Origin: Candidatus Yonathbacteria bacterium
Lineage (GTDB): Bacteria; Patescibacteriota; Minisyncoccia; Phycocordibacterales; UBA1550
Direction of reading: 5' to 3'
Assembly: GCA_016215205.1 (NCBI GenBank)
Contig: JACRKU010000005.1
Span: forward strand, 1 to 38,516
DNA length: 38,516 bases
Part shown: positions 6,049 through 38,209 of the stretch, in pieces
Layout of the letters: every line of letters begins with the position of its first letter
Numbering within the stretch: the first letter of the stretch is position 1
Made by a program: the position numbers and the translations under genes
The notes under the pieces: generated by a model
Told to the model about the DNA's origin: nothing
The model's input: only the letters and a program-made list of their open reading frames with translations
Databases searched by the model: none

Positions 6049-6054
6049 AAGTTG

Positions 6055-6127
6055 AGCCAACCCCGGGAATTGAACCCGGAACCTACGGTTTACGATACCG
6101 TTGCTCTACCAGTTGAGCTAGGTCGGC
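6055..6127 (-). tRNA. tRNA-Thr(CGT)
   Basis: Acceptor GCCGACC/GGTTGGC, anticodon arm ACGGT-AT-CGT-AA-ACCGT, T loop TTCAATT; CCA not encoded. Confidence 0.93.
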
Positions 6128-6585
6128 TTGTATTTTCTTTGGTAGGGGACAAATAAACGTGCTTCTACTGCCCTTTTACTGCCTGCACGACTATTTCTTC
6201 CTTTTCCCTTATTTAGTGCTGCGTATGTTGATGAAAGTGCATCACAATTTGGGCAAACAAGTCTCAAATTACTTTCCTTGTTATTGCGCCAGTTGCCGTC
6301 AATATGATCAGCGACTAAGGGAACTTGCCCAGTCACAATGTTCACATTAGACCACGAACATAGAACGCACTTATTGCTGTACTTCTCACGCAGGTACCTT
6401 TTAACATGCGTTGAAACTGTACCAAGGCGAGACAATCCACTCTGCCTACCTTCCTTCCAGTTTATAATATACGATTCGTGCTGGTACGCAAGCTGGCAGA
6501 CATTACTGCAATATTTGTATCCTGCGCGAGCTGGCTCCTTCCCGCAGTTTAAACATCTACCATTTAATTTTTTTGCCTTAGGCAC
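6118..6585 (-). CDS. Free-standing HNH endonuclease with zinc-finger motifs
   Basis: CLNC, YCSNVC, CVLC, DHIDGNWRNNKESNLRLVCPNCD; GTG start 6 nt after TATAAT; the stop codon lies inside tRNA-Thr(CGT). Confidence 0.88.
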   Translation of the reverse strand: MPKAKKLNGRCLNCGKEPARAGYKYCSNVCQLAYQHESYIINWKEGRQSGLSRLGTVSTHVKRYLREKYSNKCVLCSWSNVNIVTGQVPLVADHIDGNWRNNKESNLRLVCPNCDALSSTYAALNKGKGRNSRAGSKRAVEARLFVPYQRKYKPT

Positions 6586-6653
6586 GTTTCAATTATATAT
6601 TGAATGCAGACCTAAATCAAATCTAAAAGTGGTCGTTCTTTAACCAACACTTG

Positions 6654-6726
6654 AGCCGATGTCCGGGATTGAACCGGAGACCTCGTCCTTACCAAGGACG
6701 CACTCTACCAACTGAGCTACATCGGC
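6654..6726 (-). tRNA. tRNA-Thr(GGT)
   Basis: Acceptor GCCGATG/CATCGGC, anticodon arm CGTCC-TT-GGT-AA-GGACG. Confidence 0.95.
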
Positions 6727-6877
6727 TTATCTACATTGCTTACCTACCAAGACAGCTACATCGGCTTTAACGATATCTCGACACGATACACTATTTAATA
6801 CATTCTTTCAATACAAGTGAAGCAGTTCACTTGTATTGACCGCGCAAAATTAAAAGCCCTTTTGGGCTTTAATTTTG

Positions 6878-6952
6878 CGCGGTCGATGGGATTTGAACCC
6901 ACGATCTCTTCCGTGACAGGGAAGCGCTTTGGACCAGCTAAGCTACGACCGC
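6878..6952 (-). tRNA. tRNA-Asp(GTC)
   Basis: Acceptor GCGGTCG/CGACCGC with G73, anticodon arm CTTCC-CT-GTC-AC-GGAAG. Confidence 0.95.
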
Positions 6953-7629
6953 ATATTATTTAATTTATCATATTTCTCAAACACAACCTTCTTCCTTTCA
7001 AGAAAAATGCTGTCCTCAATATGGCTCCCATGATTATACATAAAATCGTATAATTTCAAAGTATCACATGTTCCAAATTGCAGACGATAACAATTCTCCT
7101 TTATTATATAAATTGAACCACCTCCAAAATCGTGCGTAGCGAGCCTTTCGAGAATACTCTCCAAAAATACTTTTGAGCATGAAGTGAGCGCTGCCTGAAT
7201 TGCAAAATGTCGTATTTTTCGCTTTTTGTGGGTTATCCCAGACCATACATTCCCATCCCCATCAAAATACCCACGTATGAAGTCGGAAAAATATTTCTTT
7301 GGAACATTCGGCACTGCCATGCTTTTTGTTTTTCGTTCCGAGAATCCAAGTCTTCTTAGGTCCTCGCACATTTCAATACTTCCTATTTGCAGACGATAGA
7401 GAGTACTTTCATTCTCTCTCATAATACGTGTGCTTATCTTATGTTCTGATTGAATAGCATTTCGTATTTGTTTAAGAAGTTTTTTGTCGGTAATTTGAAT
7501 GCACCAAAATTGTCCGCCGCGCTTATTAACGGTAATGTATCCGTCAGCAGCAAAGAAGCCGAGAACGTATGCCATTTCTGGCGACCATTTTTTAAAGAAA
7601 CTTTTATTTACTTTTTTAAGTACGGGCAC
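6943..7629 (-). CDS. Free-standing two-motif LAGLIDADG endonuclease
   Basis: AYVLGFFAADG and FIRGYFDGDG motifs; AT-rich; GTG start 6 nt after TATAAT; the stop codon lies inside tRNA-Asp. Confidence 0.88.
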   Translation of the reverse strand: MPVLKKVNKSFFKKWSPEMAYVLGFFAADGYITVNKRGGQFWCIQITDKKLLKQIRNAIQSEHKISTRIMRENESTLYRLQIGSIEMCEDLRRLGFSERKTKSMAVPNVPKKYFSDFIRGYFDGDGNVWSGITHKKRKIRHFAIQAALTSCSKVFLESILERLATHDFGGGSIYIIKENCYRLQFGTCDTLKLYDFMYNHGSHIEDSIFLERKKVVFEKYDKLNNMRS

Positions 7630-7688
7630 AAAAACATTATATCACGTGACAGGAGATTATACTAACCAAAAACTCCACATTCTAATAG

Positions 7689-7760
7689 TGCCGATGAGTG
7701 GAATCGAACCACTGTCTAGGGCTTATGAGTCCCTCGTTCTGACCATTGAACTACACCGGC
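7689..7760 (-). tRNA. tRNA-Met(CAT), probably elongator
   Basis: Acceptor GCCGGTG/CATCGGC, loop CTCATAA, paired G1-C72; A31-G39 mismatch. Confidence 0.85.
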
Positions 7761-7801
7761 TTTTAAAGCCAAATTTTTTACTAACTTAGTTTAACTCAAT
7801 T

Positions 7802-7852
7802 ACGATGATTACAAAAATGCCGACAATTGCCGGCATTTTTGTAATTTATCGT
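7802..7852. terminator. Hairpin/terminator after the initiator tRNA
   Basis: ATTACAAAAATGCCG ... CGGCATTTTTGTAAT arms with flanking ACGAT/ATCGT. Confidence 0.7.
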
Positions 7853-7853
7853 G

Positions 7854-7924
7854 TTGCGGGGGCCCGAATCGAACGGGCGTCTTCAGGTTATGAGCCTGAT
7901 GAGATACCGCTTCTCTACCCCGCT
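7854..7924 (-). tRNA. Initiator tRNA-fMet(CAT)
   Basis: AGCGGGG/CCCCGCA with a 1:72 mismatch, purine11-pyrimidine24 D-stem GAGA/TCTC, arm TCAGG-CTCATAA-CCTGA. Confidence 0.88.
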
Positions 7925-24968: not shown

Positions 24969-25055
24969 GGAGACGTGACCGAGAGGCCGAAGGTACCTCA
25001 CTGCTAACGAGGCAGGGGATAAAACCCCTCGAGGGTTCGAATCCCTCCGTCTCCG
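24969..25055 (+). tRNA. tRNA-Ser(GCT)
   Basis: Acceptor GGAGACG/CGTCTCC with G73, loop CTGCTAA, long variable arm AGGGG-ATAAAA-CCCCT. Confidence 0.93.
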
Positions 25056-25234
25056 CAAAACAAGAAGCTCAACACGAATGTGTCGGGCGACTGTGTTTTG
25101 CGAGAGATGGAGGGATTCGAAAGCGAACGCGGGCACCCGCCTGGCACGGCGGGTCGCGAGAGCAGGGCCGAGAAATTTTTATGAGTGGCGACGAATAAAA
25201 ATGTTCTTGGCCAAAAATCCCTCCGTCTCCGCAA
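25056..25234 (+). repeat. tRNA-anchored structured element, copy 1
   Basis: Antisense copy of the tRNA 3' end at 25094-25121; 19-bp direct repeat 25040-25058 = 25216-25234; core shared with 37264-37452. Confidence 0.8.
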
Positions 25235-30912: not shown

Positions 30913-30948
30913 AGACCGCGGAGATATATGGTATTTTTAAATTCTTTG

Positions 30949-31022
30949 TCCGTCCACCAGGACTCGAACCTGGGACCGCAGAGATATAAGCTCTGTGCTC
31001 TAACCAACTGAGCTATGGACGG
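30949..31022 (-). tRNA. tRNA-Ile(TAT)
   Basis: Acceptor CCGTCCA/TGGACGG with A73, D arm GCTC/GAGC, arm CAGAG-CT-TAT-AT-CTCTG, T arm CCAGG-TTCGAGT-CCTGG. Confidence 0.92.
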
Positions 31023-36365: not shown

Positions 36366-36812
36366 ATGGCGTTGATTCAGAACAAAAAGGTACACTGGAA
36401 CTACGAGATTATCTCGCGGTTTGAGGCGGGTATAGAGCTTATGGGTACCGAGGTCAAAGCGGTTCGCGATGGGCGCGGCTCGCTTGAGGGCGCGCATGTG
36501 ACTGTTCGCGGAGGCGAGGCGTATTTAGTTGGCGCAACCATTCAACCTTACCAAGCCGGCAATACTCCAAAAGATTACGATGCCGCCAGGAACCGCAGGC
36601 TCCTTTTGACAAAAACCGAGCTCGCGGAGCTTGCGACGCAAGAGTCTAAAAGGGGCTTGACAATAGTGCCTGTTGCGGTGTATAATAAAAGTCACAAACT
36701 CAAGGTTGAAATCGCGGTCGTGCGCGGTAAAAAAACGCACGATAAACGCGAAACGATTAAAAAACGTGAGGCCGAGAGAGATGTGATGCGTGACATAAAA
36801 GGCGTAAGGTAG
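36366..36812 (+). CDS. smpB: SsrA-binding protein
   Basis: NKK, EAGIELMGTEVK, RRLLL, GKKTHDKRE. Confidence 0.97.
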   Translation: MALIQNKKVHWNYEIISRFEAGIELMGTEVKAVRDGRGSLEGAHVTVRGGEAYLVGATIQPYQAGNTPKDYDAARNRRLLLTKTELAELATQESKRGLTIVPVAVYNKSHKLKVEIAVVRGKKTHDKRETIKKREAERDVMRDIKGVR

Positions 36813-36847
36813 CACTTTTACAATTCAGAATAAATGCATTTTAATAC

Positions 36848-37263
36848 GGGGATGATCGGCCTAGACAGGCGGTCAACTCTGGTCAGTGCTATGCCGAGAA
36901 TGTTCAAGACCTCGTTAAATCTTGAATACACAAGTATGTGCAAAAAACACACTTGCAAAAGCTAAGGCTATCGTATCACCATACTTTGGTGCTAACGCCT
37001 TCGCTCCTGCTTACGCTCTCGTAGCCTAAACAGCATTCACATTCAGTACGCCCTCTAGGGAATCGTGGGTGATATAAAAAGAGGGCTCATCATTTGGAAT
37101 GACTCTACCAAATGAAAAAACAAAGAGTATCGGTTGTGTATGATTTGGAATACTTTATACATACACTCCTTAAATTAAGCCTAGCTTAAAAATAAGTATT
37201 CTACGCATAGTAGACTCTAGCCAGAACATCGTCTGCACGGGGGTTCGATTCCCCCCATCTCCA
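36848..37263 (+). ncRNA. ssrA: tmRNA
   Basis: 5' GGGGATG pairs with 3' CATCTCC-A (G3-U70); T arm GGGGG-TTCGATT-CCCCC; directly follows smpB; contains a tag ORF. Confidence 0.93.
36940..37029 (+). other. tmRNA tag reading frame AKNTLAKAKAIVSPYFGANAFAPAYALVA*
   Basis: GCA resume codon after AGTATGT; ends YALVA-TAA. Confidence 0.75.
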
Positions 37264-37452
37264 CAAGTCGCACCGCCCAAAGACGCATGTCTTTGGGCGG
37301 TTTGCGATTGTGTGAGATGTGGGGAATCGAAAAGCGCAGGCGGGCACACTGTGTACTCACAGGGTCGCCGAGCTGGGGTCGCGAACACTTTGTATTTTGT
37401 GAGTAATCGAAACAAAATACTTAGTGATTCGTGACCGATGAACCCCATCTCC
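37264..37452 (+). repeat. tRNA-anchored structured element, copy 2 (on tmRNA)
   Basis: Antisense copy of the tmRNA 3' end ending at 37331; direct repeat CCCCATCTCC 37253-37262 = 37443-37452; core shared with copy 1. Confidence 0.75.
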
Positions 37453-37489
37453 CTTGCGTGAAAAGTAGGTGCGGGAGTATACTATCCCC

Positions 37490-38209
37490 ATGTCTAAACC
37501 TCACCGCATCCTTCTCAAGCTCTCAGGCGAACAATTTGCCGGCAAAAATGTTTTCGGTATTGATACCGATTTTCTTCTTGGTCTCGCAAAAGAGCTTCAC
37601 GAAGTTGTCACGGAGACAAAAGCGCAAATCGTCATCGTCGTCGGAGGCGGCAACTTTCTTCGCGGAGCAACCCTTTCAAAAAAAGAATCGACCATTGAGC
37701 GCGCTACAGCAGACTACATGGGAATGCTTGCAACAGTGATGAACGGCATGGCGCTCGTCGACATCCTCGAGCATTTTGGACAGCCCGCGCGCCTGCAAAC
37801 ACGCCTCCGCATTGAATCGGTCGCGGAGCCGTTCATTCGTCGCCGCGCAATACGCCACCTTGAAAAAGGGCGTATAGTAGTGATTGGCGGAGGGACAGGT
37901 AATCCGTTTGTAACGACCGACACTGCGGCAGTATCTACAGCGCTTGAACTCGGATGTGACATTGTTCTTAAAGCGACAAAAGTGGATGGCGTGTATTCAA
38001 AGGACCCAGACAAGCACATTGACGCGGTAAAAATTGACCGTATGTCGTACCTTGATGTCATTAAGGATAAGGATATTTCCGTGATGGACAATGCGGCAAT
38101 CTCTCTCGCGATGGACAACAATCTTCCTATTCGTATATTCGACCTTCTTACAAACGGCAACATCAAGCGAATCGCGAATGGCTTTGAGGTAGGCACATTG
38201 GTGCATTAG
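37490..38209 (+). CDS. pyrH: Uridylate kinase
   Basis: RILLKLSGE, VVGGGNFLRG, DYMGMLAT, GTGNPFVTTD, KVDGVY. Start placed at MSKPH. Confidence 0.97.
   Translation: MSKPHRILLKLSGEQFAGKNVFGIDTDFLLGLAKELHEVVTETKAQIVIVVGGGNFLRGATLSKKESTIERATADYMGMLATVMNGMALVDILEHFGQPARLQTRLRIESVAEPFIRRRAIRHLEKGRIVVIGGGTGNPFVTTDTAAVSTALELGCDIVLKATKVDGVYSKDPDKHIDAVKIDRMSYLDVIKDKDISVMDNAAISLAMDNNLPIRIFDLLTNGNIKRIANGFEVGTLVH

What the first reader, a model, noticed from the sequence alone, without database searches (positions are those of the whole stretch)
37244..37452. Second copy of the tRNA-anchored element, matched to the tmRNA 3' end
Seen: TTCGATTCCCCCCATCTCCACAAGTCGCA pairs with TGCGATTGTGTGAGATGTGGGGAATCGAA around a perfect 12-bp hairpin. 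Then GCGCAGGCGGGC-ACACTGTG/CACAGGGT-CGCCGAGC-TGGGGTCGCGAA...TGAGTAATCGA...TTCGTGACC and a CCCCATCTCC direct repeat (period 190 bp). Stem sequences differ from copy 1 while pairing and junction motifs are kept, which argues for selection on structure. It also shows that a tRNA-like T arm/acceptor end is enough as an anchor.
Basis: partly seen in the sequence, partly recalled or inferred. Interest (0 to 1): 0.75.

Follow-up and report, generated by a model that had tools for sequence, protein, structure and literature searches.

The report
Gene-less folded insert behind tmRNA gene
The stretch behind the tmRNA gene is one copy of a small, protein-less, strongly folded insertion element that sits in the ends of many tRNA genes of these tiny bacteria, brings its own replacement gene end and pushes the old one aside; no description of it was found and how it moves is unknown.

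Summary
Behind the tmRNA gene (36848-37266) lie a perfect 13-bp hairpin, an antisense copy of the tmRNA 3' end, a conserved three-way-junction core, and a decayed second copy of the tmRNA 3' end (37436-37452).

It is one of at least 11 strong copies in this 611-kb genome. Nine follow tRNA or tmRNA genes and one sits inside the 3' end of topA. A covariance model built from eight copies finds the family in 56 of 61 genomes of the order. The fold shows strong covariation (90% of cells paired, all 37 pairs with compensatory changes).

Six of 21 tmRNA genes in the genus have no element, so tmRNA maturation does not need it.

My best reading (about 0.5) is a miniature, non-autonomous insertion element. 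It enters the T-loop at C|GA and brings a new gene end, a hairpin, an antisense segment and the core, leaving the old gene end downstream to decay. The enzyme is unknown: none of five recombinase families tested tracks the element.

Rfam and four literature searches gave no description.

The scan has noted the same kind of element before on other DNA, in other Patescibacteria, Omnitrophota and Oscillospiraceae.

The parts
36848..37266 (+). tmRNA gene (target gene). Its last ~20 nt, from the T-loop onward, are the upstream copy 'S' of the repeat.
   Evidence: Rfam RF00023 107.5 bits, E 3e-41; ARAGORN tmRNA with tag peptide. An RNA contig of a relative ends at 37265 followed by adapter letters.
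37244..37272 (+). Left arm of the long inverted repeat: T-loop, T-stem 3' strand, acceptor 3' strand and 6 nt of trailer (S).
   Evidence: pair I1 (29 nt, 79% complementary).
37272..37301 (+). Perfect 13-bp hairpin with a 4-nt loop and a weak T tail. It sits where other copies carry a clear terminator.
   Evidence: pair I2 (100%). The terminator scan did not call it. Copies behind tRNA-Tyr and tRNA-Val(TAC) have hairpins with long T runs.
37303..37331 (+). Antisense segment (AS), complementary to the tmRNA 3' end. Its last bases cover the T-loop TTC on the far side of the insertion point.
   Evidence: pair I1. In the long fold it pairs with the tmRNA end; in the short fold it pairs with the downstream repeat.
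37333..37374 (+). P2: conserved stem with an internal loop and a variable apical hairpin (conserved GCGGGCAC ... GGGTCGC flanks).
   Evidence: Fold; consensus structure; pattern hits.
37377..37436 (+). P3: long hairpin whose base holds a conserved G.U pair. Its 3' end (GTGACC) abuts the downstream repeat.
   Evidence: The G.U pair is present in 55 of 61 distinct copies.
37436..37452 (+). Downstream repeat S': the displaced, decayed copy of the tmRNA 3' end. Its first 10 nt (CGATGAACCC) close the three-way junction with AS.
   Evidence: repeat D1. CGATG(A/C)ACCC is kept in 6 of 6 tmRNA-linked copies from six genomes.
37490..38209 (+). Downstream gene of the amino-acid-kinase family (UMP-kinase-like). 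A neighbour, not part of the element.
   Evidence: Pfam PF00696, E 2.6e-30.
25057..25226 (+). Copy 1 of the same family behind tRNA-Ser(GCT) at 24969-25056: hairpin region, AS at 25098-25120, core at 25121-25207, and a 19-nt repeat of the tRNA end at 25208-25226.
   Evidence: R1 match at 25108-25225, 101.5 bits.

Best explanation
Positions 37267-37452 are one copy of a family of ORF-less, structured insertion elements that enter the ends of conserved genes, mostly the T-loop of tRNA and tmRNA genes between the C and the GA of TTCGA. The inserted unit runs, in order: a replacement gene end (S), a hairpin, an antisense copy of that end (AS), and a three-way-junction core ending in GTGACC. The original gene end (S') is pushed downstream and decays. 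The tmRNA gene stays intact because the element supplies its last ~20 nt.

Shown:
- the order of parts
- the conserved fold
- presence and absence among relatives
- stacking of units in tandem
- copies in protein genes
- AS keeps matching S while S' decays

Inferred: the element moves as a folded single strand, probably DNA and possibly a circle. In that form AS pairs with S, so a duplex copy of the target lies next to the conserved junction. An enzyme supplied in trans exchanges strands at C|GA. Which enzyme does this is not known.
For: Family and architecture:
- The same order of parts follows 9 tRNA or tmRNA genes with the R1 core, and 2 more with a second core type, out of 41 tRNA/tmRNA genes in this genome.
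- In relatives the model start lies 52-58 nt behind the gene end in 32 of 35 adjacent copies, and S' mostly begins at the GA of the T-loop.

Not tied to tRNA function:
- One copy sits in the 3' end of topA, a 728-aa topoisomerase I by Pfam. Its 47-bp identical repeat is followed by diverged tails that encode alternative C-termini, and its 9-nt AS matches the junction.
- Copies behind tRNA-Lys join at the acceptor end rather than the T-loop.

Insertion polymorphism:
- Of 21 tmRNA genes in the genus, 15 carry element sequence, several as stacked units, and 6 carry none.
- At the tRNA-Ser(GCT) locus, S' and its terminator are alike across genomes, while S, the hairpin and even the core type differ.

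AS goes with S:
- In 35 copies AS matches S better than S' in 25, equally in 10, and never worse. Mean matches are 14.0 versus 10.1 of 16.

Fold under selection:
- 90.1% of cells are paired, all 37 pairs show compensatory changes, and 0 of 500 shuffles reach the observed value. Slid controls pair 33-44%.
- Ten of 35 pairs covary among six tmRNA-linked copies.

Spread and novelty:
- 56 of 61 genomes of the order have matches, up to 32 per genome.
- No ORF fits in 186 bp, and no Rfam family matches.
Against: - No enzyme was identified, and no excised form or precisely empty copy of this very site was seen.
- Y1/RAYT-like genes (48 of 61 genomes) are missing from 11 of 56 element-bearing genomes and present in 3 of the 5 without the element.
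- Resolvase-type recombinases occur in 42 of 61 genomes, with no match to element presence.
- IS110 occurs in 3 of 61.
- One Xer-like tyrosine recombinase is in 58 of 61 genomes, including all 5 without the element, so it can be neither linked nor excluded.
- Copies at a given tRNA type mostly share a core subtype across species, so movement may be rare and much of the pattern vertical.
- The wobble test does not decide which strand folds, or RNA versus DNA. Outside one conserved G.U pair there are 49 G.U against 37 A.C cells.
- The first 10 nt of S' are conserved in tmRNA-linked copies, so the junction closed by S' may also matter in place.
- In one relative (G008) the T-stem 5' strand matches S and not S'. 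A simple T-loop crossover does not predict this.
Confidence: 0.5

Rival explanations
1. It is a functional cis-acting structured RNA in the tmRNA or tRNA precursor. The trailer pairs with the 3' end of the tRNA-like domain, or alternatively with the downstream repeat, and so controls or assists 3' maturation. It could also yield a separate small RNA with a tRNA-like acceptor helix.
For: The fold is strongly conserved, with covariation and conserved unpaired junction bases. A G.U pair is kept in 55 of 61 copies. Two mutually exclusive pairings of AS are predicted. Elements persist in very small genomes across an order. The junction-closing part of S' is conserved in six tmRNA-linked copies.
Against: Six of 21 tmRNA genes in the genus lack it, as do 30 of 41 tRNA/tmRNA genes in this genome. 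A stable hairpin, a clear terminator in other copies, lies between the gene and AS. AS in the same transcript would compete with tRNA folding. Copies lie in topA and at the 5' end of an opposite-strand gene. S' decays in most copies. No transcript evidence exists either way.
Confidence: 0.2
2. There is no dedicated recombinase. The insert spreads between strains by DNA uptake and homologous recombination. The highly conserved gene serves as the left homology arm and the duplicated gene end as the right arm. The self-folding insert loops out so that the two arms lie side by side. AS stays matched to S through hairpin-templated correction during replication.
For: No recombinase family tracks the element. 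Targets are the most conserved sequences available: tRNA, tmRNA and the topA zinc ribbon. In G008 the whole T arm matches S and not S', as expected if the tRNA body was co-transferred. The topA copy has 47 identical bp followed by diverged tails, typical of a homologous crossover. Perfect palindromes of up to 37 bp that include tRNA ends, without any core, occur behind other tRNA genes.
Against: It does not explain how new targets are colonised, why the junction falls at the same T-loop position in many tRNA types, or why a three-way-junction core with conserved unpaired bases is kept. In topA the 9-nt AS pairs with the junction about 100 nt away from the hairpin, so it is not a palindrome extension.
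Confidence: 0.15
3. It is a decayed attachment-site scar, or a trans-mobilised mini-derivative, of the integrase-bearing islands that use the same tRNA and tmRNA ends in these bacteria.
For: Large serine recombinase islands sit at tmRNA ends in relatives. In G011 a 546-aa recombinase ORF overlaps the tmRNA 3' end. Contig C26 of this assembly has a second tmRNA next to such a gene. Repeats of the gene end are what integration at tRNA genes leaves behind.
Against: Scars would not keep a covarying fold in more than 600 matches across 56 genomes. Nearly the same core hairpin lies at unrelated targets, tRNA-Cys and topA. Resolvase genes were not found in 17 of 56 element-bearing genomes. An antisense copy of the target is not part of known serine or tyrosine att sites (recalled).
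Confidence: 0.1

Closest known systems
Genomic islands and prophages integrated in the 3' part of tRNA/tmRNA genes (integrase att sites at the T-loop; recalled knowledge)
   Same: The insertion lies in the T-loop-to-3'-end part of a tRNA or tmRNA gene. The element restores the gene with its own copy of the gene end. The displaced old end remains as a direct repeat. Units stack in tandem at one gene.
   Different: It is 150-250 bp with no ORF and no integrase of its own. It carries an antisense copy of the target and a conserved three-way-junction fold. Nearly the same core is found at many unrelated targets.
IS200/IS605-type single-strand transposons, their ORF-less derivatives, and REP/REPIN elements moved by RAYT (Y1 HUH) enzymes (recalled knowledge)
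   Same: These are small, non-coding, hairpin-rich repeats. A short segment next to the foot of a hairpin base-pairs with the junction sequence. Two RAYT-like genes are present in this genome.
   Different: Those elements do not carry a replacement gene end or leave a long repeat. The pairing here is 9-29 nt, not about 4. Presence of Y1 genes does not follow presence of the element.
Integron attC sites and CTX-type folded single-stranded attP sites used by tyrosine recombinases (recalled knowledge)
   Same: Structure is conserved while sequence varies. An imperfect hairpin re-creates a duplex recombination site from one strand. A host recombinase used in trans would fit the lack of any element enzyme.
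   Different: No integron integrase or cassette array is present at this locus. The target is a gene end, not attI or dif. An extra three-way-junction core is present. No tyrosine recombinase was found in this 95%-complete assembly, although 58 of 61 relatives have one Xer-like gene.
Small self-cleaving ribozymes with three-way junctions, such as hammerhead (recalled knowledge)
   Same: Three helices meet at a junction with conserved unpaired bases. The element/target boundary lies exactly at the junction between P3 and P1.
   Different: The junction strands do not carry the hammerhead core. No Rfam ribozyme model matches even at E up to 10. No cleavage evidence exists.

Membership tests
tmRNA (Rfam RF00023), for the gene in front of the element | Covariance-model score above the gathering threshold, tag reading frame, tRNA-like ends | tested here: met
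   107.5 bits against a gathering score of 47, positions 36848-37266. ARAGORN gives the tag peptide.
Any Rfam 15 family, for the element itself | Match at or above a family's gathering score | tested here: not met
   At E up to 10, the only hits are the tmRNA and tRNA ends plus far-sub-threshold hairpin (miRNA-type) matches, for both copies.
tRNA/tmRNA-integrating islands with their own integrase | Insertion in the gene's 3' part with a repeat of the gene end | tested here: met
   The repeat lies at 37246-37262 and 37436-37452. The same holds at 35 tRNA-adjacent copies.
tRNA/tmRNA-integrating islands with their own integrase | Integrase gene carried by the element | tested here: not met
   The stretch is 186 bp between the tmRNA gene and the end of the repeat. 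The ORFs listed there are 40-92 aa and overlap the tmRNA gene or the structured core.
IS200/IS605 derivatives and REP/RAYT | Presence depends on a Y1 HUH transposase in the genome | tested here: not met
   Eleven of 56 genomes with the element have no homologue by Pfam model or by this genome's own protein. Three of 5 genomes without the element have one.
IS200/IS605 derivatives and REP/RAYT | Insertion without carrying or duplicating target sequence | tested here: not met
   Repeats of the gene end are 10-19 nt at tRNA and tmRNA genes. The topA copy has a 47-nt identical repeat inside about 75 nt of duplicated gene end.
Integron attC / cassette array | Integron integrase and an array of ORF cassettes each ending in the site | tested here: not met
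   No PF00589 match in this assembly. Relatives have one conserved Xer-like gene each. No cassette ORFs lie between tmRNA and the next gene here.
IS110 with bridge RNA | DEDD/IS110 recombinase beside the non-coding RNA | tested here: not met
   There is one IS110 gene in this genome, on another contig. The family is found in 3 of 61 genomes.
Retroelement (reverse-transcriptase dependent) | Reverse transcriptase in the genome | tested here: not met
   No PF00078 match in this 95%-complete assembly. Relatives were not tested.
Intrinsic terminator, for the 13-bp hairpin | GC-rich stem followed by a T run | tested here: inconclusive
   The stem is perfect, but the scan did not call it because the tail is TTTGCGATT. 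Other copies have clear T runs.

The most novel reading that the evidence does not exclude
The element is a protein-less, nucleic-acid-guided mobile DNA. Folded as a single strand (or as its transcript), its antisense segment selects the target by base pairing across the insertion point. The conserved three-way junction either recruits a housekeeping enzyme, such as the single Xer-type recombinase or a type IA topoisomerase, or is itself catalytic at the P3/P1 boundary. New gene ends could then be colonised simply by changing the guide and the carried gene end.
Probability: 0.2. Interest if true: 0.9.

Novelty: new variant of a known kind. Interest (0 to 1): 0.7.

Why it matters
If the reading holds, a quarter or more of the tRNA genes in many ultra-small (CPR/Patescibacteria) genomes carry a parasite or partner of a design not found in print. 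It is an insert with no gene of its own that rebuilds the gene it enters, carries a mirror image of its target, and keeps a precise fold. That bears on how mobile DNA persists in genomes of about 0.6 Mb. It also bears on annotation: spare tRNA ends, false 'introns' and second tmRNA ends can be misread. Target choice by base pairing next to a compact scaffold would also be of interest for programmable DNA insertion, if shown. For this locus, the last 20 nt of the working tmRNA gene and the hairpin behind it are probably element-borne.

Tried and rejected
- **Known RNA families.** Rfam at gathering threshold on the whole window, and at E up to 10 on both copies, gave nothing for the element.
- **Transcription.** One run search and one lay of four metatranscriptome runs were done. 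The contigs, all from relatives, cover only the tmRNA, and none covers 37292-37624. This says nothing about this organism.
- **Strand or RNA-versus-DNA from wobble pairs.** Inconclusive.
- **Terminator and promoter scan.** It did not call the 13-bp hairpin or any promoter in 36700-37600.
- **Enzyme by co-occurrence.** Y1/RAYT, IS110 (71), resolvase-type (72) and tyrosine recombinase (76) were tested across 61 genomes. Reverse transcriptase and TnpB were tested in the own genome only (48, 69). None tracks the element.
- **Absence of a tyrosine recombinase here.** I first read the lack of PF00589 in this genome as excluding Xer or integron-type routes. I dropped that when 58 of 61 relatives showed one conserved copy; the gap is probably in the assembly.
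- **Phage carriage.** Two pattern scans of viral contigs gave 0 and 3 hits. None of the 3 hits matches the model.
- **Pure fold-back origin.** The idea that hairpin-templated copying made AS and S' was rejected as the sole origin, because of the topA copy.
- **Literature.** Four full-text searches listed no paper on such an element. I saw search listings and abstract starts only and opened no paper. Supplementary files were not consulted.

Full report
**1. What is at 37244-37452**

The window carries smpB (Pfam SmpB) followed by a tmRNA gene at 36848-37266 (Rfam 107.5 bits; ARAGORN). An amino-acid-kinase-family gene starts at 37490.

Between the tmRNA gene and that gene lie, in order:
- a perfect 13-bp hairpin (37272-37301)
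- a segment antisense to the tmRNA T-loop, T-stem and acceptor 3' strand (AS, 37303-37331)
- a stem with an internal loop and a variable tip (P2, 37333-37374)
- a long hairpin (P3, 37377-37436)
- a partial second copy of the tmRNA 3' end (S', 37436-37452)

The only correction is that the hairpin has 13 pairs, not 12.

Folding is far beyond chance:
- The short stretch has z -5.3. There AS pairs with S' and closes a three-way junction.
- With the tmRNA end included, z is -11.8. There AS pairs with the tmRNA end instead.
- The opposite strand folds less well, at -51.8 kcal/mol and z -4.3.

**2. It is a family, not a pair**

A pattern taken from the two window copies hit a third copy behind tRNA-Tyr on another contig. 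The reversed-pattern control gave no hits.

I scanned all 41 tRNA and tmRNA genes of the 611-kb genome for a sense and an antisense copy of their own 3' end within 300 nt. This showed the same layout behind tRNA-Tyr, Ser(GCT), Val(GAC), Glu(TTC), Leu(TAA), Cys, Val(TAC), Glu(CTC) and the tmRNA. A second core type lies behind tRNA-Met and tRNA-His.

Eight copies align to one three-way junction, with 24 of 37 pairs showing compensatory change. A covariance model (R1) finds:
- 16 matches in the own genome at E up to 1, 11 of them strong
- matches in 56 of 61 genomes of the order, including all 28 other genomes of the genus, with up to 32 per genome
- matches in only 5 of 150 other genomes in an even sample of the phylum, at E up to 1e-5

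So this core type is concentrated in the order.

On 63 matches from fetched loci (61 distinct), 90.1% of cells pair and all 37 pairs have changes on both sides. No shuffle of 500 reaches the observed values, and slid controls pair 33-44%. That alignment is fitted to the model and so leans towards it. The independent MAFFT/RNAalifold runs agree with it. One G.U pair at the base of P3 is kept in 55 of 61 copies.

**3. It behaves as an insertion, not as part of the tmRNA**

Among 21 tmRNA genes found in the genus (counts read):
- 13 carry complete element sequence, often two or three units stacked
- 2 more are cut by contig ends
- 6 have none

In relatives, 2-10 kb can lie between the tmRNA gene and the kinase-family gene. 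This includes an island whose 546-aa large serine recombinase ORF overlaps the tmRNA 3' end.

At the tRNA-Ser(GCT) locus, the downstream copy S' and the terminator behind it are alike across genomes. S, its hairpin and even the core subtype differ. So S' is the old gene end, and S came with the insert.

Across 35 tRNA-adjacent copies, AS matches S better than S' in 25, equally in 10, and never worse. Mean matches are 14.0 against 10.1 of 16, and S' matches S at only 10.9 of 16. The old end decays while the antisense segment is kept matched to the working end.

Against a purely decaying S': the first 10 nt of S' (CGATG(A/C)ACCC, which closes the junction with an internal loop) are kept in all six tmRNA-linked copies compared. 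Ten of 35 pairs covary among those six.

**4. The target is a gene end, not only a tRNA**

One strong copy (85.9 bits) lies inside the 3' end of topA (Topoisom_bac, Toprim and zinc ribbons). The last 24 codons of the working gene are followed by:
- a small hairpin
- a 9-nt AS matching the junction
- a core whose P3 is nearly identical to that of the tRNA-Cys copy
- a second copy of the gene end, with 47 identical bases and then a diverged tail encoding a slightly different C-terminus
- a terminator

A copy of the second core type replaces the 5' end of an opposite-strand gene. Copies behind tRNA-Lys join at the acceptor end.

In tRNA copies S' begins at the GA of the T-loop TTCGA, right after the conserved core end GTGACC. 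AS runs 2-4 nt past that point on the other side, so it spans the junction.

**5. Mechanism**

I commit to a miniature, non-autonomous insertion element, at about 0.5. The inserted unit is S, hairpin, AS and core. If that unit is closed on itself, AS:S becomes the stem that joins the hairpin to the three-way junction. A duplex copy of the target then lies beside the conserved junction, and opening it at C|GA against the same site in a target gene gives exactly the observed order. The hairpin after S keeps the host gene separate from AS, which would otherwise compete with tRNA folding. These steps are inferred.

The enzyme is not known. The own assembly (95% complete) shows:
- no reverse transcriptase and no TnpB
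- three large serine recombinases
- two RAYT-like Y1 genes
- one IS110
- no tyrosine recombinase

Across 61 genomes:

| Family | Genomes with it | Element-bearing genomes lacking it (of 56) | Element-free genomes having it (of 5) |
|---|---|---|---|
| Y1/RAYT-like | 48 | 11 | 3 |
| Resolvase-type | 42 | 17 | 3 |
| IS110 | 3 | 53 | 0 |
| Xer-like tyrosine recombinase | 58 | 3 | 5 |

So no element-specific enzyme emerges. A housekeeping enzyme cannot be excluded.

**6. Rivals**

- A cis-acting RNA for maturation (0.2) fits the conserved fold. It does not fit the presence/absence pattern, the intervening hairpin or the protein-gene copies.
- Spread by DNA uptake and homologous recombination, with the gene and its duplicated end as homology arms (0.15), fits three things: the lack of an enzyme, the G008 locus where the whole T arm goes with S, and the topA crossover pattern. 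It does not explain the conserved core or the fixed junction.
- An integrase scar or mini-derivative (0.1) does not explain covariation over hundreds of copies.

**7. Comparison with what is known**

The closest systems share single features:
- tRNA-integrating islands share gene-end replacement and repeats.
- IS200/IS605 and REP/RAYT share hairpins and a pairing segment at a hairpin foot.
- attC and CTX-type sites share a duplex site rebuilt from one folded strand.

None combines a carried gene end, an antisense copy and a three-way-junction core without any gene.

Rfam has no model for it. Four full-text searches listed nothing (listings and abstract starts only).

Earlier notes of this scan describe the same kind of element in other Patescibacteria and, with other cores, in Omnitrophota, Planctomycetes and Oscillospiraceae. 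I used these as leads only.

**8. Verdict**

This is a real, widespread and apparently undescribed element family, of which this is the tmRNA-linked copy. The mechanism is open.

Noticed in passing
window 24969-25226: Copy 1 of the family lies behind tRNA-Ser(GCT). It has a different core subtype (P3 ends TTGGCC) and an exact 19-nt repeat of the tRNA end, followed by the old terminator.
   Followed up: yes
own genome contig C1:76100-76560 (minus strand; loci L006, L133): The same core is inserted in the 3' end of topA. The last 24 codons are supplied by the insert, and the displaced original end encodes a slightly different C-terminus.
   Followed up: yes
own genome C12 tRNA-Arg(GCG), C14 tRNA-Phe, C12 tRNA-Ser(TGA), C16 tRNA-Arg(TCT): These tRNA genes are followed by near-perfect palindromes of up to 37 bp that include the acceptor 3' strand (with CCA where encoded) but have no core. 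The Arg(GCG) and Phe palindromes share the same central hairpin.
   Followed up: partly
own genome C6 (tRNA-Met), C9 (tRNA-His), C23:5450-5900: A second core type (GGGGTCGGG ... CCGTGGGTTT) has the same sense/antisense layout. The C23 copy replaces the 5' end of an opposite-strand gene.
   Followed up: partly
own genome contig C26 (locus L012/L073): A second tmRNA gene, 81% identical to the window's, has no element and lies next to a 524-aa large serine recombinase gene on the opposite strand. It may be an island border or a co-binned relative.
   Followed up: no
own genome C3:7512-8186 (-) and C5:24122-24565 (+): Two divergent RAYT-like (Y1 HUH) genes. The C3 gene has conserved orthologues (52-79% identity) in many relatives.
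   Followed up: partly
own genome contig C27:1597-2640: An IS110-family recombinase gene (363 aa), rare in this order (3 of 61 genomes), lies on a short contig beside a fragment with a weak resolvase match.
   Followed up: no
window 6054-7924 (minus strand): A cluster of five tRNA genes (Thr, Thr, Asp, Met, Met) has ORFs between them. A short duplicate of the tRNA-Thr(GGT) 5' end lies just beside that gene (about 6727-6770).
   Followed up: no
L087 (G011:C18:78900-90000) 455-2095: A 546-aa large serine recombinase ORF overlaps the last ~84 nt of the tmRNA gene on the opposite strand. About 8 kb of island follows before two R1 elements and the kinase-family gene.
   Followed up: partly
window 30948-31022: ARAGORN calls a tRNA-Ile with anticodon TAT (UAU).
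   Followed up: no
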